A stretch of DNA of 64,000 bases, taken from assembly GCA_013151915.1 (NCBI GenBank), contig JAADHJ010000006.1, positions 65,404-129,403 on the forward strand, written 5' to 3'. Position 1 is the first letter of the stretch, and every line of letters begins with the position of its first letter. Made by a program: the position numbers and the translations under genes. Below are positions 45,862-59,937 of this stretch, one piece after another. The stretch comes from Deltaproteobacteria bacterium (GTDB lineage Bacteria > BMS3Abin14). The notes under the pieces are model-generated. The model was not told where the DNA came from and made no database searches. It saw only the letters and a list, made by a program, of their open reading frames with translations.

Positions 45862-46395
45862 TCAACCCAGTACTTTAAGATACTCCAGCAGATCGTTCAT
45901 GTCTTCATCCGATATGTTCCACCTGGGCATGGTCCGGTCCATGGACTCTCCCGAGGGCTCGATGCCATCGCGAATAGCCTTTTTGATCCCCTCATCGGTG
46001 TATGCGGCCTCTTCTCCGTCGTCTGCCTCACCGTGATGCTTGCCTGAAATAAGCGAGGAATACCGGATGTCGCCCGGGATGTGCGTCCCCATCATCACCG
46101 GCAGGCCGCCCTTGCCGTCCGGACCATGGCAGTTGACGCAGGACCCCCCCATCATGCGGAGCCAGTGGGGCCCTCCCCGGAACCGGATTCTCTGTCCCTC
46201 GCCGTCGATTCCGAGATAGTAGATGCGCTCCCCGGCAGACGAGTATGACCCCTTGTCATAGACCCCCCCGGCCCCCCATCCTGAGAAGGAAGCCATATGC
46301 CTGCTCCCGGCGCCGTACAGACAGACCCCGGCGATTCCCAGGATCATCAGGCCGAGGCCCCACCACAGGGTCCGGCGGGATCTTTTATCGCTCAT
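45862..46395 (-). CDS. membrane-anchored mono-heme c-type cytochrome
   Basis: An N-terminal TM helix with a single CVNCH haem-binding motif. The start overlaps the SHOCT gene stop by 4 nt (ATGA). Confidence 0.65.
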   Translation of the reverse strand: MSDKRSRRTLWWGLGLMILGIAGVCLYGAGSRHMASFSGWGAGGVYDKGSYSSAGERIYYLGIDGEGQRIRFRGGPHWLRMMGGSCVNCHGPDGKGGLPVMMGTHIPGDIRYSSLISGKHHGEADDGEEAAYTDEGIKKAIRDGIEPSGESMDRTMPRWNISDEDMNDLLEYLKVLG

Positions 46396-46863: not shown

Positions 46864-48873
46864 TTACCGCATCTTGAGCGTCCGCGCATTGATCGCCACG
46901 ACAACAGTGCTCAGCGACATGAGAAGGGCCCCCATGGCCGGGCTGAGGACAATGCCCTTGCCGGCAAGCACTCCTGCCGCCAGCGGGATGGCGAAGATGT
47001 TGTAGCCCGTCGCCCAGGCCAGGTTCTGGACCATCTTGCGGTATGTGGCCCTCGCCAATTCGAAGATAGCCGCCACGTCGCGGGGATCACTGCGGACCAG
47101 GACGACGTCGGCCGTCTCCACAGCAACGTCGGTGCCCGCACCGATGGCAATTCCCAGATCGGCCGTTGCCAGGGCCGGCGCGTCGTTGACGCCGTCCCCG
47201 ATCATGGCGACTTTCTGTCCATCTTCCATGAGCTTCCTGATCGTGGCCGCCTTCTGGTCGGGAAGGACTTCCGCAAAATACTCATCAAGACCCAAGGTCT
47301 TGGAAACGGCGGCAGCCACCTTACTGTGGTCTCCCGTGAGCATCACGCACTTGATCCCCATGGCGTGAAGTCGCTCCACAGCTTCCACGGACGCGGGTCT
47401 TATAACGTCGCCCAGGGCAATGGCGCCCAGGATGGTGTCCCCCTCCAGCACGAAGACCACCGTCCGGCCTTCTGAATAGTGCTCAGCGAGGGGTTCTTCG
47501 TCAAAATGAAGGCCCCTTTCCCGCAGGTAGCCCGGGCTTGCCACCATGATCTTCCGCCCTTCCACCGTGGCCGTTGCTCCCTTCCCCTTGACTGCGTAAA
47601 AATCAACGGCCGGGGGGACTATGATCTCACGGGTGGAGGCCTCGGCGACAACTCCCTGAGCAATGGGGTGCTCTGACAGGCTTTCCACCGATGCCGCGAG
47701 ACGCAGGATCTCTTCCCCGGTTATGTTCTCGGATGGAATGATCCCCCGGACCCCGAAAAGACCTTCGGTGAGAGTCCCGGTTTTATCGAAAACAACGGCG
47801 TCGATGAGCCGGGACCTCTCGAAGGCGGCCCGGTCGCGCAGCAGCAGACCGCTGGACGCCGCGAGGGAAGTGGACACGGCCACAACAAGAGGGACGGCGA
47901 GACCGAGAGCGTGAGGACACGTTATGACCATGACGGTAACCATGCGCTCCATCGCGTATGCGAAGTCCTGGCCCAGGAGCAGCCACACGATCAGGGTCAG
48001 CGATCCAACACTCAGGGCAATGACGGTGAGCCAGAAGGCGGCACGGTTGGCCAGATCCTGGCTGCGCGACCTCGTCTCCTGGGCATTCCGGACCATCGTC
48101 ACCACCTGGGCGAGAAAGGTTTCCTCGCCCACTTTTTCCACAGCCACGGTGATGGAACCCTCGTTGTTGATGGCACCGCCCACCACTCCGTCGCCCGCCT
48201 TCTTTCCTACCGGCACCGATTCACCGGTAAGCATGGATTCGTTCACCGTGGTACTTCCCTCCACCACAGTGCCATCCGTGGGGACTTTCTCACCAGGCTT
48301 GACCACGAATCGGTCCCCCTTGACCAGGGTGTCGACCGGGACGTCACTGACGGATCCGTCATCCGCGACGAGGTGGGCTTCGGAGGGCAGGAGCCGCACC
48401 AGCTCCTCCAGGGCGCGGGACGCGCCCATGACGGACCGCATCTCGATCCAGTGACCGAGCAGCATGATGTCGATTAGGGTAACCAGTTCCCAGAAAAACA
48501 CCTTTCCGGGAAGGCCGAAAACCACCGCGGCGCTGTAGCCGTACGCCGCCGATATGGCCACGGCGATAAGGGTCATCATTCCCGGCCGGCGGGCGGCGAC
48601 TTCAGTGAACAGACCCTTAAGGAACGGCCACCCGCCGAAAAAATAAACCACTGAGGCAAGCACGAACAGGACCAGGGAATCGCCGGGGAAAACGATCCGT
48701 CCCTCGATCCCGAGGAACGACTGGACCATGGGAGACAGGGCGAGGACAGGGACCGTCAGGGCGAGGCAGATCTTGAAGCGCCCCTTGAAATCGGCCACCA
48801 TGTGCTCGTGGTGCGAACTGTGCCCCTTGTGTTCGCCCTGCGCTGAATGTGCCTGCATGTTATGTTTCTCCAT
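46864..48873 (-). CDS. copB: P1B-3-type heavy-metal ATPase (CopB-like), His-rich N-terminus
   Basis: His-rich N-terminus MEKHNMQAHSAQGEHKGHSSHHEH, TM6 CPH motif (ITCPHALGLA), DKTGTLT and GDGVNDAP. Confidence 0.85.
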   Translation of the reverse strand: MEKHNMQAHSAQGEHKGHSSHHEHMVADFKGRFKICLALTVPVLALSPMVQSFLGIEGRIVFPGDSLVLFVLASVVYFFGGWPFLKGLFTEVAARRPGMMTLIAVAISAAYGYSAAVVFGLPGKVFFWELVTLIDIMLLGHWIEMRSVMGASRALEELVRLLPSEAHLVADDGSVSDVPVDTLVKGDRFVVKPGEKVPTDGTVVEGSTTVNESMLTGESVPVGKKAGDGVVGGAINNEGSITVAVEKVGEETFLAQVVTMVRNAQETRSRSQDLANRAAFWLTVIALSVGSLTLIVWLLLGQDFAYAMERMVTVMVITCPHALGLAVPLVVAVSTSLAASSGLLLRDRAAFERSRLIDAVVFDKTGTLTEGLFGVRGIIPSENITGEEILRLAASVESLSEHPIAQGVVAEASTREIIVPPAVDFYAVKGKGATATVEGRKIMVASPGYLRERGLHFDEEPLAEHYSEGRTVVFVLEGDTILGAIALGDVIRPASVEAVERLHAMGIKCVMLTGDHSKVAAAVSKTLGLDEYFAEVLPDQKAATIRKLMEDGQKVAMIGDGVNDAPALATADLGIAIGAGTDVAVETADVVLVRSDPRDVAAIFELARATYRKMVQNLAWATGYNIFAIPLAAGVLAGKGIVLSPAMGALLMSLSTVVVAINARTLKMR

Positions 48874-48888
48874 ATCCTGATATCCCCC

Positions 48889-49956
48889 TCAATCCGCTGT
48901 CTTCCTGAGATTCAGAAGGTGCCGCCTTGCAGCCAAAGCTGCCTTCGCACCTTCTCCCGAAGCTATGATAATCCTCTTTCCGAAAGCGTCGGTAACGTCC
49001 CCGGCCGCAAAGAGCCCGGGACAGGACGTTGAGCAATCGGGGCCGATGGTGATCTCCCCGTTTTCGTTGAGTTCGACAATATCCGAAACCAGATGGGAGT
49101 TAGGCTGCAAGCCGATGGCAATGAATACGCCCCCGGCCGGCAGGTATAACGTCTCCTCCCCGGCTATCTTTCTGATCGTCAAACCGGACAATGCACTCTC
49201 GCCCTTAAAATCAACTACTTTGTATCCTTCGTACATGTTGAGGTTCTCGAATCTGCATATACGAGCCACAAGCGACGGATCAGCACTTAGTTTGCAGTCG
49301 GAGATGAGATTTATATTTTTGACGACGGTTCGCACTTTCTCAACGATCTGCACGGCCGAATTACCCCCCCCGATGATAGCGACATCTTCCCCTGTCACAA
49401 AGGAAAAATCCTGGATATTGCCGTAAAAGAGTCCTTTTCTCTGGAACTCCTCCTCACCGGGAACATCCAGTTTTCTCCTCGTCATACCGGTTGAAATGAT
49501 CAGGGTTTTTGCAAAATAGATCTTAAGCTCCGATGTAGTAACGTTGAAACCACCCTGGACGGTTTCGATCTTATCCGCTTCAGCGATCAGGTGGTCTATA
49601 TAGTGTGAGTGGAGCAACTGGCGCTGAAACTTTTCAGTCAGTTCAGGTCCCGTGATGAAGTCGAAACCCATGTAGTTCTCTACTTTCGTGCTGTCTATGG
49701 CCTGACCGCCGAGATCTTTAGCCAGCAGGAAGGCATCAATTTTAAGCGTGTCCGCATAGACAGCCGCCGTGAGCCCGGCGGGTCCGCCGCCGATAATAAT
49801 GAGATCGTAGGAAGTGCGGGGGAGTTCACATACCCTCTCCGCCAGGAATTTGTCCCTGCAGCCTTCGGAGCAGAAATAAAAGATCTTGTTGTCACATTCT
49901 GTTGTAAGAGCAGTTCTTTCGTCGATATCCATCTTGCATATGGGATCTTTTTTCAC
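48889..49956 (-). CDS. YHS/TRASH-domain fused to thioredoxin-reductase-like NAD(P)/FAD oxidoreductase
   Basis: The N-terminus has ICKMDIDERTALTTECDNKIFYFCSEGCRDKF, the same module as at the CopA N-terminus. This is followed by LIIIGGGPAGLTAAVY and the TrxR-like C-terminal GD motif FAAGDV. No CxxC redox pair is present. Starts at GTG. Confidence 0.65.
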   Translation of the reverse strand: MKKDPICKMDIDERTALTTECDNKIFYFCSEGCRDKFLAERVCELPRTSYDLIIIGGGPAGLTAAVYADTLKIDAFLLAKDLGGQAIDSTKVENYMGFDFITGPELTEKFQRQLLHSHYIDHLIAEADKIETVQGGFNVTTSELKIYFAKTLIISTGMTRRKLDVPGEEEFQRKGLFYGNIQDFSFVTGEDVAIIGGGNSAVQIVEKVRTVVKNINLISDCKLSADPSLVARICRFENLNMYEGYKVVDFKGESALSGLTIRKIAGEETLYLPAGGVFIAIGLQPNSHLVSDIVELNENGEITIGPDCSTSCPGLFAAGDVTDAFGKRIIIASGEGAKAALAARRHLLNLRKTAD

Positions 49957-51589: not shown

Positions 51590-54319
51590 TCATATCCTGC
51601 GCCTGTACCTGCGCATCAGTAGTGAGTTTGTAACGACGGACACGGAGCTGAAGGCCATAGCCGCTCCGGCGATGATCGGACTGAGCAGAAACCCTGTGAA
51701 CGGATACAGGATGCCGGCGGCAATGGGGAGACCGAGGGCGTTGTATATAAAGGCCCAGAAAAGGTTCTGTTTGATCTTGCGCATGGCGAAGCTGGACAGA
51801 TCCATGGCCATGACCACATCCCGGATGTCGTCCTTGATAAGCACGATGTCGCCTGATTCTATAGCCACATCCGTGCCGCTGCCGATGGCGATCCCGATGT
51901 CCGCCTGGATCAGCGCGGGGGCGTCGTTGATGCCGTCCCCAACCATGGCGACCTTGAGACCATCGTCCTGGAGTTTTTTCACCTCGGCTGATTTGTCCTG
52001 GGGAAGCACCTCGCTAAGCACCCTGTTTATCCCCACCTGGGCGGCGATGGCCTTAGCGGTCCTTCTATTGTCGCCGGTGATCATTACCACCTCCTTACCC
52101 ATCTTTTGCAGAGCCCCGACAGCCGCCGCAGAGTGTTCCTTAAGGGTGTCGGCCACCGCCAGGATTCCGGCAACATCGTTGTCAACACCGACGATCATCG
52201 ACGTTTTGCCCTGCTCCTCAAGCCCGGTCATCGCCTCGTCTGCGTCCTTCAGGTCCAGACCCGCCTCGGTAAAGTAGGCCCGGTTTCCGATGACAACTTT
52301 CCGGCTGTTCACAGTGCCCTCGACACCTTTCCCGGTAATGGAGATAAAGTCCTCAGGCGGCGTCAACTCCAGACCCTTGGCAAGAGCGCCGTTCACGATC
52401 GCCTCTCCCAGAGGGTGTTCCGAGTTCTTCTCGACGGAAGCGGCAAGTTGAAGCAAAAGGTCGGAGTCCCAGTCCCCGAAGGTCCCCACATCGGTTAACT
52501 CGGGTTCCCCTTTGGTCAATGTGCCTGTCTTGTCGAACACCACCGTGTCTATTTTATGTGCTATCTGAAGCGCCTCCGCGCTCTTGATGAGGACCCCGTT
52601 CTTGGCACCCAACCCGGTGCCCACCATGACGGCGGTGGGGGTTGCCAGCCCCAGGGCGCAGGGACAGGCAATGATGAGCACAGCGATGAACACGGTCAGG
52701 GCGAAGATGAAGCTCTGGCCGGCCAGCATCCAGATGCCGAAAGCGACCAGGGCGATTACTACCACACCCGGAACGAAATAAGCCGAAATGAGATCCGCCA
52801 ACGCCTGGATAGGGGCCTTGGAGCCCTGGGCCTCTTCCACCAGGTTGATGATCTGAGCCAGGGCCGTGTCCTTGCCGACCTTGGTGGCCCTGAATCTGAA
52901 GGAGCCGGTCCTGTTCATGGTGGCCCCGACGACCTCGTCGCCCACGGTTTTTTCCACCGGGATACTCTCACCCGTGAGCATCGACTCGTCCACGGCCGAA
53001 TACCCGTCAATGATGATTCCGTCCACGGGGATCTTCTGTCCCGGTTTGACCAACACTTCATCGCCCGTGTGCACCTCCTCAACCGGGATCTCCATCTCCC
53101 GGCCGTCTCGCACGACGAGGGCGGTTTTGGCCTGGAGCCCCATCAGCGACCTGATCGCTTCGGAGGTCTTTCCCTTGGCTATGGCCTCAAGCCACTTACC
53201 CATCAGTATGAAGACAATAAGAAGCCCGGCGACCTCAAAATAAAGATTCTCTGCCGAGTAGCCGGGCTTCCCGGACCAGATGGCGACCAGTACCGCCGTA
53301 CTGTAGATCCAGGCGGCGCCGGTACCAAGGGCCACCAGTGTGTCCATGGTTGCCATCCGGGTCTTGATAACCGAGAGAATACCCCTCGTGTAGAACTGGT
53401 AGTTGACGAACAGTATGGGAGTGGCCAGGAGGAACTGCAGGATGGACTCCCACCTGGCCGGCATGTGGGGCACCGGTATGCCCACCAGGGGCCCCATGGT
53501 GAGGGTGACGAGAGGCAGGCCCAGGACAGCCGAGAAGATGAACTTGAGCTTGAGGATCTTGATCTCCCGGTCCCTCGCCTCCTTCTCCCGGTCCAGGGTC
53601 TCTTCCGTCTCCTCCAGGGGTGTGTATCCCGCGTCCCGTATCGTCTGGAAGATCTCTTCCCTGCTGATAACGGCAGGATCGAAGTCGATCTTGGCCCTCT
53701 CGTTGATGAAAAGTTCCTTGGATAGGATCCCCCGCAAGCTGTTCAGGACGCCCTGAACCGTTCCAAGGCAGTGGGGGTTGTCCATTCCTACGACCTTCAG
53801 GTCAAGGTGCCCGGCGCGCGCCTCTCTTATATGGGGTGTATAGCCTGCGTCCACGATGGCCTTTTCAAGGTCCTGGTAAGAGACGGCGGCGGGGTCGAAT
53901 CGGACCATCGCCGATTCGGCCGCGAAGTTGACGTTTGCTTCCGACATGCCGTCAAGCTTCGACAGAGCCTTTTCGATGGTCGACGCGCACGATGCGCAGT
54001 GCATGCCGGTTATTCCCATGGTGACCGTCTTTTCGGCGGGTGCCTCCGCATCACTTTTCTCCGGCAAAGGTATTTCACGGGCTTCAACTGAGACCCCCGC
54101 CTCGAGTTCCGGAGCACCATTCTCTTCCTCTGGACCCTGGACTCCCGACTCCGGACTTCCGGCTCCGGAATCCGGAGTCAGGAATTTGTCCCTGCACCCG
54201 GGGCTGCAGAAGTACCAGGTCTTACCGTCCTTCTCCCCGGAAAGGGCTGTGCTCTCATCCACCTCCATGCCGCATATCGGATCAACCACCATCTCTGAAC
54301 CCTTCTTTTCCGGTTTCAT
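51590..54319 (-). CDS. copA: Cu(I)-translocating P1B-1 ATPase with N-terminal YHS/TRASH plus HMA domains
   Basis: N-terminal [35 protein letters not shown] motif GMHCASCAS, plus a second degenerate HMA. CPC motif ([12 protein letters not shown]), [15 protein letters not shown]. Confidence 0.9.
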
Positions 54320-54434
54320 AAGCCTCTCTCCATTTCGTTTTTACCCAGCCCCCATACTCGATCATCGCACGCGGAGGGTTTCCATAACTCAGTGAAATAA
54401 TTCCGCATCATGACGTGTTCGGCAATGCGGCCCG

Positions 54435-54608
54435 TCAACCACAGCAGCCCCCGCCTTTTTTTGTGTGCTTAGCGGTGCTGTTATCGTCCCGGGCACTTGA
54501 TTCCGGATCATCTTCATGATGTGCGTGGCCGACGTTTCCGTGCCTGGGTCGGAATATCATGAATCCCAGAGCTAAAATTACCGCCAATCCTATCAGTTTC
54601 GAAACCAT
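54435..54608 (-). CDS. small membrane protein with His-rich region and C-terminal GGGCCG (57 aa)
   Basis: An ATG at 54608 follows GGAGGT. It has one TM helix, then HGNVGHAHHEDD and the terminal KKGGGCCG. It lies directly upstream of copA. Confidence 0.5.
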   Translation of the reverse strand: MVSKLIGLAVILALGFMIFRPRHGNVGHAHHEDDPESSARDDNSTAKHTKKGGGCCG

Positions 54609-54903
54609 CCTTAACCTCCATTTCTGTATCGGGTGCAAAAGAGACCCGATATCCATTTGATGCCCCTGACTTGCCCCTTGATCCGATTAAAGCGAACGAT
54701 CTGTCTGTGCCCATGCATGTCAATCTCCCTCTTGATATTATATCAGCTCTGCTCTCATGGTTAAAATATACCCTACCCCCCTAGGGTATGTAAAGGAGTT
54801 TTTTCATCCCCTTGTGCTGAAAGACTATTCCTGGACACATATCGGAACGGTTGATATCCTTGTATCCGGCATAGGCACCGGCGGCATCGAGACGGAGAAG
54901 CTG

Positions 54904-55761: not shown

Positions 55762-57165
55762 TCACACTATCAGCCGATCCCACGTCCCATACTTTTCCTT
55801 AATGGTACCGCGAGGAATGCACAGCAAGATCAGCAGAACGCCGACGATTGTATTGTTCAATATTGTGCTGGTGCCGGCCCCTGCAAGCAGCCAGGGTGAA
55901 GCGATGACCCACGCACTGAATAAAACATTGATAAAACGGCCGGCCCTGATAATTTCAGCCATGGCTATCACTGCGACAGTTACAATGAGCGCGCCAAAAA
56001 TATTGTTGCTGACCGCTGCTCTACCCATCGTGCCAAGCACCACAGGCGAAAGCATGAGCCATAGGCCGAAGGCCGCGCTGAGAAGCAGCGTCCATGGCAT
56101 CGTGACTCCCCAGGACATTGCGGGAAAGTGCTCTTTAACGGGGGTCCCGTACAATGGCGTTCTTTCGTCCGTGTTCTCCAGGTTCAGCGTCCCCCCGATC
56201 CAGAATGTCCGCCACAGAGAATTTCCTTCACGCACGCTCTGCTTGAGAAACTGCCCCATCGCGACCAGCTCATCCACGGTGAACGGGATCATCAGGAGCA
56301 TGAGCAATGCGGTTATCAGACATAACGTGCACCAGTAACCCACAACAACCGGCTGCAGGATCACCAGCACGATGCTCGTGACGCCGAGCGGCACGACGAG
56401 GATGAAAAAGCCTGTCACCATCCACGGCATGGAACGCCAGCGCGTCTTGCCGCCCATCCAGGCCATGAGCATCTCCAGGGTATAGGCCACCGCGCCAAGT
56501 CCGGCATCGGAGATAGGAAATTTCCGCGACACGTCTGAAGTCAACACGTTCACAGTGCCCTGTCCAAAAAGCGGTTCCCAGATCGTGGGGATAAAACCCA
56601 ACTGGAATGCCGCGAGATAACGGGAAATCAACCAGCCGGCAAACGCGATGACGATCATCGGCGCACGCTGATGCCAGGTTGATGGATTGTAGCTCCAGCC
56701 TGGTGGAATTTCCGGGCCTGATTTGGCCATCTCCATATGATGCGCCATGCCGGGCATCGAGGGCACGAGGACTGAAAACGCAATGGCTAACGTGCCGATC
56801 AAGGTGTCGTTCGCAAACGCAGCCGGGCTTTTGGTCCAGAATACAAGGGGTGCGAACTGAAGCCATATCCCCACCAGGGCAACACTCCAGCGCCCCCAGG
56901 AATCAAATTGCGGGAACATCGCCAACAGGGCAAACAAGGCAAGCAACAGGCCACTGACCACATCGCTCCAGATCATTGCCGGTTTCACATAGCCGAAGGT
57001 AAACGGGCTGGTGATCAGCCAGAAACCAAGTCCCACGATAGTAAAGTTGGTCCATAACCACCGGCGGCGCATGTTCAGCGTCATATCCGTCATGTTTCCG
57101 TGGCTGTCCATGGAATCCATATTATGTTCACCGTGCTTCAAGGTGTGTTCGTGTTCCGATCTCAT
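55762..57165 (-). CDS. polytopic membrane protein (SPW-repeat-like / possible VKOR-like, CxxC in membrane)
   Basis: At least 10 predicted TM helices, repeated (S/T)SP(W/F) segments, and a membrane-embedded CTLC. Confidence 0.4.
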   Translation of the reverse strand: MRSEHEHTLKHGEHNMDSMDSHGNMTDMTLNMRRRWLWTNFTIVGLGFWLITSPFTFGYVKPAMIWSDVVSGLLLALFALLAMFPQFDSWGRWSVALVGIWLQFAPLVFWTKSPAAFANDTLIGTLAIAFSVLVPSMPGMAHHMEMAKSGPEIPPGWSYNPSTWHQRAPMIVIAFAGWLISRYLAAFQLGFIPTIWEPLFGQGTVNVLTSDVSRKFPISDAGLGAVAYTLEMLMAWMGGKTRWRSMPWMVTGFFILVVPLGVTSIVLVILQPVVVGYWCTLCLITALLMLLMIPFTVDELVAMGQFLKQSVREGNSLWRTFWIGGTLNLENTDERTPLYGTPVKEHFPAMSWGVTMPWTLLLSAAFGLWLMLSPVVLGTMGRAAVSNNIFGALIVTVAVIAMAEIIRAGRFINVLFSAWVIASPWLLAGAGTSTILNNTIVGVLLILLCIPRGTIKEKYGTWDRLIV

Positions 57166-58520: not shown

Positions 58521-59252
58521 ATGGAAAAGTTCGCATGGCTTATCTGGTCGCTGAGTTTCCTTTCCTTTTGGGGCGTTGTATATTTTACGAGGCCTTCAAC
58601 GAGGAAGCAGATGCTGCGAATGAGTCTGTTCACAGCCCCCCTGGGGCTCACCGAGCCGCTGTTCGTGCCGGCATACTGGAACCCCCCGACCCTGTTCGGC
58701 CTGGCCCAGAGAACCGGGTTCGATATCGAGAGCCTTATTTTCTGCTTTTCGATAGGAGGTATCGCGACGGTCCTTTATGAGATGGTGGTGCCGACGCGGC
58801 ATGTCCCGATGCACAAGGACGAAAGACACAACCCTCACCACCGGTTCCATCTGCTCGCACTGATAAGCCCGGTCATCGTCTTCATTCTGCTAGCGCTGAC
58901 CACTTCCTGGAACGCCATCTACCCCGGCATCCTGGCCATGATCGTAGGAGCGATGGCGTCTCTGTGGTGCCGGCCGGACCTCAAGGGCAAGATCTGGGTG
59001 GGCGGAGGAATCTTCCTGGTTCTCTATTTTCTGTTTTTCCAGCTTCTGGATCTGGCGTTTCCGACCTACGTTGAAAGATACTGGACACTTGATGCCCTTT
59101 CGGGGATTATAGTGTTGGGAATCCCGATAGAAGAATACCTTTTTGCTTTCACCTTCGGCCTGATGTGGTCCAGTTTGTATGAACACCTCTCGTGGCAGAA
59201 AATAATACCCGCTCACCGGGGGACACATTCACCAAACAACAAAGACTCATGA
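58521..59252 (+). CDS. lycopene-cyclase-domain-like integral membrane protein
   Basis: 7 hydrophobic helices and two P-x-EE-like segments (GLTEPLF, GIPIEEYLFAF), reminiscent of CrtYcd-domain proteins. Confidence 0.4.
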   Translation: MEKFAWLIWSLSFLSFWGVVYFTRPSTRKQMLRMSLFTAPLGLTEPLFVPAYWNPPTLFGLAQRTGFDIESLIFCFSIGGIATVLYEMVVPTRHVPMHKDERHNPHHRFHLLALISPVIVFILLALTTSWNAIYPGILAMIVGAMASLWCRPDLKGKIWVGGGIFLVLYFLFFQLLDLAFPTYVERYWTLDALSGIIVLGIPIEEYLFAFTFGLMWSSLYEHLSWQKIIPAHRGTHSPNNKDS

Positions 59253-59280: not shown

Positions 59281-59937
59281 ATGGGGGAACAGGATATGAG
59301 CCAGAACTACGCATATGGGAAATGGCCCCTGGTTGTGGGAATGATCATTGTAGCCCTTTTCTTTATAACCAGGTACATCCCTATAAAAACTAAATTCGAA
59401 AAACGCAGCGGCGGTGTGTTGTACACCTTTATCATCGCTCTTTTTGCCGAAATGTATGGTTTCCCGCTTACTATCTATATATTATCAACACAGTTCGGAC
59501 TCAAGATCCCTTTGACACACTCATATGGTCACCTGTCCGCTTATCTCCTCACCTTTTTGGGAATCAAGATAGCTTACGGCTGGGCATTAGTGATGATCGT
59601 GAGTAACGTTGTCATTGTTTTTGGCGTGATATGGATCACCAAAGGGTGGAGCCAGGTTTATCATTCGGATGGCAAACTCGTAACAACGGGAATCTATTCC
59701 AGAATGCGTCATCCCCAATACAGCGGGATCATCCTGGTTGCCATAGGTTTTTTAATCCAATGGCCGACACTAATTACCCTGTTCCTGTTCCCCTTTCTTA
59801 TAGTGATGTATTACAGGCTCGCCATGAGGGAAGAACACGATGTCGAGGAAGTATACGGACCGGAATATATCGACTATAAGAAAAATGTACCGGCCTTTAT
59901 TCCTCGTCTTAAGCTTGGTCTCTTGACAGCAAAATAA
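59281..59937 (+). CDS. isoprenylcysteine carboxyl methyltransferase (ICMT/PEMT) family membrane methyltransferase
   Basis: The C-terminal GIYSRMRHPQYSGIIL...EE...L matches the ICMT SAM-binding signature. Confidence 0.75.
   Translation: MGEQDMSQNYAYGKWPLVVGMIIVALFFITRYIPIKTKFEKRSGGVLYTFIIALFAEMYGFPLTIYILSTQFGLKIPLTHSYGHLSAYLLTFLGIKIAYGWALVMIVSNVVIVFGVIWITKGWSQVYHSDGKLVTTGIYSRMRHPQYSGIILVAIGFLIQWPTLITLFLFPFLIVMYYRLAMREEHDVEEVYGPEYIDYKKNVPAFIPRLKLGLLTAK

What the first reader, a model, noticed from the sequence alone, without database searches (positions are those of the whole stretch)
54435..54608. 57-aa membrane peptide with His-rich stretch and C-terminal GGGCCG encoded immediately upstream of copA
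The peptide has a good RBS, one TM helix, HGNVGHAHHEDD and a terminal Cys-Cys-Gly, and sits where copZ usually lies. It may be a novel membrane-tethered copper chaperone or sensor peptide, replacing CopZ. It is too short to be annotated by standard pipelines.
Basis: inference. Interest (0 to 1): 0.5.

Follow-up and report, generated by a model that had tools for sequence, protein, structure and literature searches.

The report
Conserved Cys-Cys membrane micro-protein beside copA
The 57-residue ORF is a real, conserved gene for a membrane-anchored peptide ending in GGGCCG, always encoded between the copper repressor gene csoR and the copper pump gene copA, so it is most likely an unnamed copper-handling helper of the pump, similar in layout to the mycobacterial PacL proteins.

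Summary
It lies on the minus strand: ATG at 54608, stop at 54435, GGAGG 6 nt upstream, copA 115 nt downstream.

The gene is real. There are 22 homologue clusters of 57-77 aa. dN/dS is 0.10-0.41 across nine loci. Every locus examined has the order csoR - [peptide A] - this peptide ("B") - copA (YHS+HMA type), behind a conserved TAC-N9-GTA CsoR operator.

- **Conserved parts of B:** an N-terminal helix followed by FRPR, and a C-terminal K..GGGCCG. The middle is His-rich, variable and predicted disordered.
- **Topology:** flanking charges predict N-out/C-in, so the Cys-Cys pair would be cytoplasmic.
- **Peptide A:** its helix is followed directly by GGGCCGSHGGH. It belongs to a larger unannotated family of 104 clusters, with some YHS fusions and some hybrids carrying both CC motifs.
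- **Known families:** no Pfam or NCBIfam model matches B.

The best reading is a membrane-tethered Cu(I)-binding accessory of CopA. It resembles PacL (DUF1490) in layout but is not homologous to it. "Replacing CopZ" is untested. "Too short to annotate" is wrong, because JGI and NCBI both call it.

In this genome a ~450-nt deletion removed most of csoR and all of peptide A.

The parts
54435..54608 (-). Peptide B coding sequence (57 aa plus TGA): N-terminal transmembrane helix, FRPRH, His-rich disordered linker, C-terminal KKGGGCCG
   Evidence: sequence; 22 homologue clusters; invariant R20 P21 D34 K50 G53 G54 C55 C56 G57; purifying selection; helix 2-19, remainder below pLDDT 50
54615..54619 (-). 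Shine-Dalgarno GGAGG, 6 nt before the ATG at 54608
   Evidence: Every homologue has GGAGG or GGAGGT 6-8 nt upstream of its start
54320..54434 (-). 115-nt spacer between peptide B and copA. The DNA is partly conserved with L081 and L083, but no significant RNA structure was found
   Evidence: alignment; MFE z-score +0.59; weak consensus. Spacer length in relatives ranges from an overlap (L088) to about 270 nt
51590..54319 (-). copA: P1B-1 Cu(I) ATPase with an N-terminal YHS domain, one CxxC HMA domain, one degenerate HMA domain, and the CPC / YN / MxxSS membrane motifs
   Evidence: The motifs were read directly from the translation. The second HMA lacks CxxC
54611..54718 (-). csoR stump (35 aa). 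The first 21 codons match CsoR; the rest is out-of-context sequence left by a ~450-nt deletion that also removed peptide A
   Evidence: PF02583, E 0.022; tblastn 70% identity over 20 aa; alignments with loci that have intact csoR-A-B
54774..54788 (-). CsoR-type operator TACCCTAGGGGGGTA (TAC-N9-GTA with a G-tract), located between the -35 and -10 elements
   Evidence: It is conserved in L082, L083 and L100. The TAC-X9-GTA motif is defined in PMC3902906
54765..54794 (-). Promoter-like site: -35 TTTACA (54794-54789), 18-nt spacer, -10 TATATT (54770-54765)
   Evidence: 10 of 12 consensus matches; conserved in the alignments

Best explanation
Peptide B is a single-pass inner-membrane micro-protein. 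Its short N-terminus faces outward. Its roughly 38-residue disordered, His-rich tail, ending in the invariant GGGCCG, lies in the cytoplasm.

In relatives it is co-transcribed with copA from a CsoR-repressed promoter, so it is made when cytoplasmic Cu(I) rises. The proposed mechanism is as follows. The membrane anchor keeps the flexible tail in the plane where CopA takes up Cu(I). The vicinal Cys pair, helped by nearby His, captures Cu(I). It then passes the Cu(I) to CopA's cytoplasmic metal-binding heads (YHS, HMA) or to its membrane-face entry site, or it buffers Cu(I) locally.

It normally works alongside the paralogous peptide A, whose GGGCCG sits directly at the membrane face. It may also stabilise or cluster the pump, as PacL proteins do.

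Shown here: the coding status, the conservation, the synteny, the helix-plus-disordered-tail layout and the operator. Inferred: topology, Cu(I) binding, hand-off to CopA, and any physical contact.
For: - **Real gene under purifying selection:** dN/dS 0.10-0.41 in 29 of 36 pairs from nine loci; the other seven had saturated dS. Fisher p 3e-5 to 8e-4 in three pairs. All 22 clusters are 57-77 aa with no frameshifts.
- **Strict synteny:** 10 distinct B proteins were seen in genomic context (window, L001, L081-L093, L100). All lie between csoR, or its stump, and a YHS+HMA copA. Eight of the ten have peptide A just upstream. In L088 the B stop overlaps the copA start.
- **Copper-responsive control:** a TAC-N9-GTA operator sits between -35 and -10 and is conserved, matching the published CsoR operator motif (PMC3902906).
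- **Architecture:** AlphaFold2 gives a helix at residues 2-19 (pLDDT about 83), with the rest below 50.
- **Topology:** there are 2-4 Lys/Arg in the 10 residues after the helix, against at most one Lys (position 4) at the N-terminal end. Peptide A and the YHS fusions have acidic N-termini with no positive charge, so these are not Sec signal peptides.
- **Invariant ligands:** C55 and C56 are flanked by Gly.
- **Family links to metal handling:** the B and A profiles match at 96.5% probability over the helix and the following FR. Hybrids carry both CC motifs (P0082, P0083, P0128). About ten A-type members are fused to a YHS metal-binding domain. One hybrid follows a MerR-family regulator. An A-type peptide lies 57 nt after a P1B ATPase in Desulfotomaculum arcticum.
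[quoted passage not shown] They are encoded upstream of P1B ATPases, including csoR-pacL3-ctpV. CopA is known to accept Cu(I) at a membrane-face platform (PMC7558416).
Against: - There is no experimental or structural evidence for metal binding, topology or contact with CopA.
- Topology rests only on charge rules.
- Thiol-redox membrane genes lie nearby (an SPW+VKOR fusion in the window, DsbD_TM upstream of csoR in L084/85). These would fit a periplasmic Cys pair equally well.
- Two adjacent Cys are geometrically awkward for two-coordinate Cu(I) within one chain, so binding may need dimers or a partner.
- The His-rich stretch is poorly conserved; P0002 and P0004 have only 2 His.
- CopA already has its own CxxC HMA and YHS heads, so an extra chaperone is not obviously needed.
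- More distant A-type relatives are not always next to a copA.
- The B family itself is narrow: 22 clusters, all from metagenomes or unclassified MAGs.
Confidence: 0.6

Rival explanations
1. B is a PacL-like scaffold. Its main job is to stabilise, localise or cluster CopA in the membrane by protein-protein contact. Metal binding by the Cys-Cys tail would be secondary or needed only at high copper.
For: Same layout and operon position as PacL1-3. For PacL1 the metal-binding motif is dispensable at low metal levels, while the cytoplasmic region is needed for ATPase accumulation. The helix is the best-conserved part of B besides the C-terminus, and it contains a small-residue G-x-x-x-x-x-x-x-G pattern.
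Against: B lacks the Glu/Ala repeats that mediate PacL-ATPase binding, and it has no DUF1490 or DUF6110 match. Apart from the helix, the only invariant residues are the FRPR box and the GGGCCG terminus, which points to the Cys pair as the functional centre. The tail between them is variable in both length and sequence.
Confidence: 0.17
2. B has the opposite topology, with the tail in the periplasm. It would accept or buffer Cu(I) on the exit side of CopA, or act in thiol-redox protection of the envelope, with its Cys pair kept reduced by DsbD/CcdA-type proteins.
For: A DsbD_TM gene lies directly upstream of csoR in L084/85. A VKOR-family fusion protein lies 1.1 kb from the operon in the window. 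His-rich and Cys-containing periplasmic copper-binding proteins are common (own knowledge).
Against: The cluster of 2-4 Arg/Lys immediately after the helix, against at most one Lys before it, predicts C-in. It would also hinder Sec export. The related A-type and YHS-fusion N-termini are acidic, which is the opposite of a signal peptide. In the CopA proteins of these loci the YHS domain is necessarily cytoplasmic. The redox genes are not consistently present in the other loci.
Confidence: 0.12
3. B is a cis-acting leader peptide. Its translation or membrane insertion would tune copA translation in response to copper, as CutF does for cutO.
For: It is a small ORF with metal-ligand residues directly upstream of a copper gene, and CutF-like proteins are widespread upstream of metal-homeostasis genes. 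The B stop overlaps the copA start in L088. A weak hairpin spans the B stop codon.
Against: There is no Pro-rich motif in the last 15 residues and no signal peptide, both of which define CutF-like proteins. The spacer fold is no better than shuffled sequence (z = +0.59). The B-copA distance varies from an overlap to about 270 nt. The copA gene has its own strong ribosome-binding site.
Confidence: 0.05
4. The conserved C-terminal GGGCCG is a processing or modification signal rather than a simple ligand. It could direct lipidation or carboxyl-methylation, or conversion of the peptide into a copper-binding natural product.
For: The terminus is completely invariant. A PEMT/ICMT-like membrane methyltransferase recurs near the operon: window 59281-59937, L091/92, and also near the YHS fusion in L094.
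Against: No modifying enzyme lies inside the operon. The methyltransferase is absent from several loci and is separated from the operon by 4.5 kb in the window. In peptide A the same GGGCCG motif is internal, not terminal.
Confidence: 0.04
5. It is not a gene, only a chance ORF in the copA leader region.
For: It is short, and many ORFs of this size occur by chance in this GC-rich window.
Against: Twenty-two homologue clusters, a preserved frame, dN/dS well below 1, a conserved ribosome-binding site and conserved termini.
Confidence: 0.02

Closest known systems
PacL proteins (PacL1/Rv3269, PacL2/Rv1993c, PacL3/Rv0968; Pfam DUF1490) and PacL-like DUF6110 proteins
   Same: [quoted passage not shown] It is encoded immediately upstream of a P1B-type ATPase in the same operon. 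The pacL3 case has the same csoR-small protein-Cu ATPase order (PMC9374683, PMC13460109).
   Different: There is no sequence relationship: no DUF1490 or DUF6110 hit for any of 21 members at E up to 10. B is about 57-77 aa, against about 90-100 aa for PacL. It has no Glu/Ala repeats. Its terminal motif is Gly-flanked Cys-Cys rather than Asp/His (DLHDHDH). It usually comes as a pair (A+B). It is not actinobacterial. Its partner is a canonical P1B-1 CopA with a YHS head, not a P1B-6-like pump.
CopZ / Atx1-type soluble copper chaperones (HMA fold)
   Same: Encoded next to copA under CsoR control, and presumed to bind cytoplasmic Cu(I) through Cys thiolates.
   Different: [quoted passage not shown] B is membrane-anchored and disordered, with adjacent Cys and no HMA match.
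CupA of Streptococcus pneumoniae
   Same: A copper chaperone tethered to the membrane by an N-terminal helix and working with CopA (PMC7558416).
   Different: CupA has a folded cupredoxin-like domain with two defined Cu sites. B has no folded domain.
CutF-like copper-sensing leader proteins
   Same: Small Cys/His-containing ORF directly upstream of a copper-homeostasis gene (PMC9973294).
   Different: CutF has a Sec signal peptide, a C-terminal Pro-rich stalling motif and a downstream stem-loop that masks the next ribosome-binding site. None of these is present here.
FeoB-associated Cys-rich membrane protein (Pfam PF12669)
   Same: A protein of about 50-60 aa with an N-terminal transmembrane helix and a Gly/Cys-rich C-terminus, encoded beside a metal transporter. 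It is the only Pfam family that gives any signal.
   Different: Only 4 of 21 members hit, with a best E of 0.047, below the Pfam threshold. The partner is an iron importer, not a copper exporter.
MerT / MerE / MerF mercury transport proteins
   Same: Small inner-membrane proteins that handle a thiophilic metal through Cys pairs, for example MerT Cys24-Cys25 (PMC5715351).
   Different: Mer proteins have 2-3 helices with the Cys pair inside the first helix, and they import Hg(II). There are no NCBIfam Mer hits. Here the regulator is CsoR and the pump is a Cu(I) exporter.

Membership tests
PacL / DUF1490 (and PacL-like DUF6110) | Match to the Pfam DUF1490 or DUF6110 model | tested here: not met
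   No hit for the window peptide at E up to 1, and none for any of 21 family members at E up to 10
PacL / DUF1490 (and PacL-like DUF6110) | [quoted passage not shown] | tested here: met
   AlphaFold2 helix at residues 2-19, remainder below pLDDT 50. The charge bias predicts C-in, but this is a prediction only
PacL / DUF1490 (and PacL-like DUF6110) | Glu/Ala repeats in the cytoplasmic region, which are needed to bind the ATPase | tested here: not met
   No EA repeats in any of the 21 sequences
PacL / DUF1490 (and PacL-like DUF6110) | C-terminal His-rich metal-binding motif (optional in the family) | tested here: inconclusive
   A C-terminal motif is present and invariant, but it is GGGCCG (Cys-based). 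The His residues lie in the middle of the tail
PacL / DUF1490 (and PacL-like DUF6110) | Encoded in an operon immediately upstream of a P1B-type ATPase | tested here: met
   All 10 distinct contexts examined
PacL / DUF1490 (and PacL-like DUF6110) | Required for accumulation or clustering of the cognate ATPase; binds its metal-binding domain | not testable with these tools
   Needs genetics and biochemistry
CopZ / HMA copper chaperone | HMA (ferredoxin-like) fold with an MxCxxC motif | tested here: not met
   No PF00403 or NCBIfam CopZ hit. No CxxC in the sequence. The tail is disordered
CutF-like sensor leader proteins | N-terminal Sec signal peptide | tested here: not met
   The hydrophobic segment is followed at once by RPRH/RPRR with no polar cleavage region, and the charge bias predicts N-out. 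This is sequence-based only
CutF-like sensor leader proteins | Pro-rich (PP) motif within the last 15 residues | tested here: not met
   The last 15 residues of all members lack PP. The criterion is taken from PMC9973294
CutF-like sensor leader proteins | [quoted passage not shown] | tested here: not met
   Spacer MFE z = +0.59. The copA ribosome-binding site is unpaired in both the MFE and the consensus fold
FeoB-associated Cys-rich membrane protein (PF12669) | Pfam model match above the gathering threshold | tested here: not met
   0 hits for the window peptide. 4 of 21 relatives hit at a best E of 0.047
MerT/MerE/MerF mercury transporters | NCBIfam/Pfam Mer model match; 2-3 transmembrane helices with a Cys pair inside helix 1 | tested here: not met
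   No hits. B has one helix and its Cys pair is at the C-terminus
New 'TM-GGGCCG' peptide superfamily (peptides A and B; unnamed) | N-terminal helix ending in G[FY]M[MI]F[RK], plus a Gly-flanked vicinal Cys pair | tested here: met
   B and A profiles match at 96.5% probability over the helix. GGGCCG is invariant in both. Hybrids carry both CC sites

The most novel reading that the evidence does not exclude
Peptides A and B define a previously unrecognised, cross-phylum superfamily of micro-proteins: a transmembrane helix plus a Gly-flanked vicinal Cys pair. They would be dedicated membrane-resident Cu(I) loaders for P1B-ATPases. B would catch Cu(I) on a flexible tether and pass it to A's membrane-face Cys pair, and from there to the CopA entry site. 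A soluble CopZ would then be unnecessary in these lineages. This would be an independent invention of the PacL principle using thiolate chemistry.
Probability: 0.25. Interest if true: 0.7.

Novelty: new variant of a known kind. Interest (0 to 1): 0.55.

Why it matters
How Cu(I) reaches the membrane entry site of CopA-type pumps is still debated. Candidates are soluble CopZ, the pump's own metal-binding heads, and small thiols. PacL proteins recently showed that tiny membrane partners can be essential for P1B-ATPases in mycobacteria.

This family would extend that principle to canonical copper pumps in unrelated bacteria, using a different ligand chemistry: a Gly-flanked Cys-Cys. It also gives a name and a testable role to more than 120 clusters of "hypothetical" micro-proteins that no Pfam or NCBIfam model covers.

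The peptides are small enough to synthesise, so Cu(I) affinity, stoichiometry and transfer to CopA domains can be tested directly.

Tried and rejected
- **Family scans:** Pfam and NCBIfam scans of B, A and their relatives gave no family. The only signal was a sub-threshold FeoB_associated hit.
- **Single-sequence search:** the word-indexed homology search with B alone found only itself. The exhaustive HMMER search and then a profile search were needed.
- **False positive:** P0005 (361 aa, repetitive) is a low-complexity false positive and was dropped.
- **Self look-up:** looking up the window's own protein on encoding contigs returned nothing.
- **RNA checks:** the Rfam scan of the window gave no hits. 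The fold of the B-copA spacer was no better than shuffled sequence, so an RNA-element or attenuator reading was rejected.
- **tRNA scan:** none found.
- **"Peptide C":** the gene calls between B and copA in L084/85/91-93 have no ribosome-binding site and an odd composition, and are treated as spurious.
- **Taxonomy:** this could not be established. The closest genomes are labelled only "MAG: bacterium", and the cluster look-up gave no organism names.
- **Structure-based search:** not attempted, because the model is one helix plus a disordered tail.

Full report
**1. The observation**

The ORF is on the minus strand. Its ATG is at 54608 and its stop codon ends at 54435. It encodes MVSKLIGLAVILALGFMIFRPRHGNVGHAHHEDDPESSARDDNSTAKHTKKGGGCCG. 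GGAGG sits 6 nt upstream, at 54619-54615.

The next gene, 115 nt downstream, is a 909-aa CopA (54319-51590). It has a YHS domain, one CxxC HMA domain, one degenerate HMA domain, and the E1-E2 and HAD domains. The CPC, YN and MxxSS membrane motifs of Cu(I) pumps can be read directly in its translation.

A 57-codon ORF is not remarkable by itself in this window: 79 ORFs of at least 30 aa lie in 6.5 kb. The case therefore rests on comparative evidence.

**2. It is a real, conserved gene**

The word-indexed search found only the identical JGI gene call. The exhaustive HMMER search found three homologues of 57-58 aa. A profile built from these found 22 clusters, all 57-77 aa, none with a name or a Pfam domain.

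- **Invariant residues:** R20, P21, D34, K50 and the terminal G53-G54-C55-C56-G57. The N-terminal hydrophobic segment is nearly invariant.
- **Selection:** across nine loci with DNA, dN/dS is 0.10-0.41 in the 29 of 36 pairs that gave a ratio, with dS from 0.4 upward; in the remaining seven pairs dS was saturated. In three pairs, synonymous changes exceed non-synonymous ones at Fisher p = 3e-5 to 8e-4.
- **Start site:** every homologue has GGAGG 6-8 nt before its ATG. This also fixes the start at 54608 rather than at the upstream ATG at 54656.

**3. Context**

Ten distinct family members were seen in their genomic context: the window, L001, L081-L093 and L100. All lie between csoR (PF02583) and a copA with YHS and HMA heads.

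Eight of the ten have a second small gene, "peptide A" (55-68 aa), between csoR and B. Peptide A is a transmembrane helix followed directly by MMF[RK]GGGCCG[SP]HGGH and an acidic, His-rich tail. L082 has csoR-B-copA with no A. In L088 the B stop overlaps the copA start.

Upstream of csoR, all aligned loci share a promoter with TAC-N9-GTA between -35 and -10. In the window this is TACCCTAGGGGGGTA at 54788-54774. It is the published CsoR operator motif (PMC3902906). In relatives, B therefore belongs to a copper-derepressed csoR-A-B-copA transcription unit.

**4. What happened in this window**

Only the first 21 codons of csoR remain (54718-54611). Alignments were made with L081-L083 and with L100. 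L100 shares the window's divergent LarE-like neighbour gene and has an intact csoR-A-B. They show a single deletion of about 450 nt. The deletion lies between two short similar strings, AAAATGATC in csoR and GAAATGGATA in the A-B spacer. It removed csoR codons 22-86 and all of peptide A.

The promoter, the operator, B and copA are intact. No other csoR lies in the 64 kb. By inference, B-copA is constitutively expressed here unless a CsoR encoded elsewhere acts in trans. An assembly artefact cannot be excluded.

**5. Anatomy and topology**

AlphaFold2, run with the family alignment, gives one helix at residues 2-19 (pLDDT about 83). Everything after it is below 50, which means disordered.

The 10 residues after the helix carry 2-4 Lys/Arg (RPRH, RPRRK). 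The N-terminal end carries at most one Lys, at position 4. Peptide A and the YHS-fused relatives have acidic N-termini with no positive charge, so they cannot be Sec signal peptides. The positive-inside rule therefore predicts N-out/C-in, with the His-rich tail and the Cys pair in the reducing cytoplasm. That is the side from which CopA takes up Cu(I). This is a prediction, not a measurement.

**6. A wider family**

The B and A profiles match at 96.5% probability over the helix and the following FR. The A profile finds 104 clusters, including:
- proteins from Desulfotomaculum arcticum, Syntrophomonadaceae, Clostridiales MAGs and "bacterium BMS3Abin14";
- about ten fusions of helix-GGGCCG-His-rich linker to a YHS metal-binding domain (P0096, P0118 and others);
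- hybrids with both a membrane-face GGGCCG and a C-terminal KKGGGCCG (P0082, P0083, P0128);
- many members ending in CCH or CH.

One hybrid follows a MerR-family regulator. An A-type peptide lies 57 nt after a P1B ATPase in D. arcticum. Two more distant members are not next to a pump, although one of them is near Metal_resist and YHS genes. None of these has a Pfam or NCBIfam model for the helix-GGGCCG module.

**7. Mechanism**

The most likely reading is a membrane-tethered, cytoplasm-facing Cu(I)-binding accessory of CopA. The anchor confines a flexible tail to the membrane surface. The Gly-flanked Cys pair, together with His, captures Cu(I) and either passes it to CopA or buffers it locally. 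The acceptor on CopA could be the YHS or HMA heads, or the membrane-face entry platform described for CopA (PMC7558416). A and B probably act together, since fused versions exist.

Shown here: coding status, conservation, synteny, operator, and the helix-plus-disorder layout. Inferred: topology, metal binding and hand-off.

Rivals:
- a PacL-type scaffold role, with metal binding secondary;
- a periplasmic orientation, suggested by the nearby VKOR and DsbD genes;
- a CutF-like leader peptide, disfavoured because there is no PP motif, no signal peptide, a spacer fold of z = +0.59 and a variable spacer;
- modification of the CCG terminus, hinted at only by a recurrent ICMT/PEMT-like gene nearby.

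**8. Comparison with known systems**

The closest known system is PacL (DUF1490) of mycobacteria. [quoted passage not shown] They are encoded upstream of the P1B ATPases CtpC, CtpG and CtpV. PacL3 sits in the csoR-Rv0968-ctpV operon (PMC9374683, PMC13460109).

Peptide B works like a PacL on paper but is not a member. It has no DUF1490 or DUF6110 match, no Glu/Ala repeats and a Cys-Cys rather than an Asp/His motif. It is also shorter and is usually paired with A. It is likewise not a CopZ/HMA protein, a CupA, a CutF-like protein, an FeoB-associated protein (sub-threshold hits only) or a Mer transporter.

**9. Verdict**

In novelty terms it is a new variant of a known kind. It is an unannotated, non-homologous analogue of PacL for canonical copper pumps, within a broader unnamed helix-GGGCCG peptide family.

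Noticed in passing
window 54611-54718 (-), with promoter and operator at 54765-54794: csoR is reduced to a 35-aa stump by a deletion of about 450 nt between short similar strings (AAAATGATC / GAAATGGATA). The deletion also removed peptide A. The CsoR operator and promoter are intact, so the B-copA unit is probably derepressed in this genome.
   Followed up: yes
L001 2335-2523; L081 356-532; L083 1960-2166; L084 1688-1855; L086 5753-5932; L088 685-870; L091 5763-5930; L100 2462-2638: Peptide A (55-68 aa) is a transmembrane helix followed directly by GGGCCGSHGGH. It belongs to a family of 104 unannotated clusters across several phyla. The family includes fusions to YHS domains and hybrids with a second C-terminal GGGCCG.
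   Followed up: partly
window 48889-49956 (-); also L001 707-1774, L086 3855-4898, L091 2023-3066: A pyridine-nucleotide-disulfide oxidoreductase with an N-terminal YHS metal-binding domain recurs within a few kb of the csoR-A-B-copA operon. It could be a metal-linked reductase. Its function is unknown.
   Followed up: no
window 46864-48873 (-): A second P-type ATPase (669 aa) with no N-terminal HMA or YHS domain lies 2.7 kb downstream of copA, next to a cytochrome c gene (45862-46395).
   Followed up: no
window 58521-59252 (+) and 59281-59937 (+); L091/L092 3774-5199; L082 1601-2302: A Lycopene_cyc-domain membrane protein and a PEMT/ICMT-like methyltransferase recur immediately upstream of csoR in relatives. 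An ICMT/PEMT gene also lies near the YHS-fusion peptide in L094. Any link to the Cys-terminal peptides is speculative.
   Followed up: no
window 55762-57165 (-); L084 333-1055: An SPW-repeat + VKOR fusion protein lies in the window, and a DsbD_TM protein lies upstream of csoR in L084/85. Both are thiol-redox membrane proteins close to the operon, which bears on the unresolved topology question.
   Followed up: no
L084 2175-2411; L091 6211-6399; L093 841-1029: Pipeline gene calls of 62-78 aa between peptide B and copA have no ribosome-binding site and look like a translated repeat or spacer. They are probably not genes.
   Followed up: partly
window 54398-54445 (-): A weak hairpin spans the peptide B stop codon (CUGYGGUUGAC pairing with GUCRURAYGCGG) and is kept in four loci, mostly through one-sided changes. 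The spacer as a whole folds no better than shuffled sequence.
   Followed up: partly
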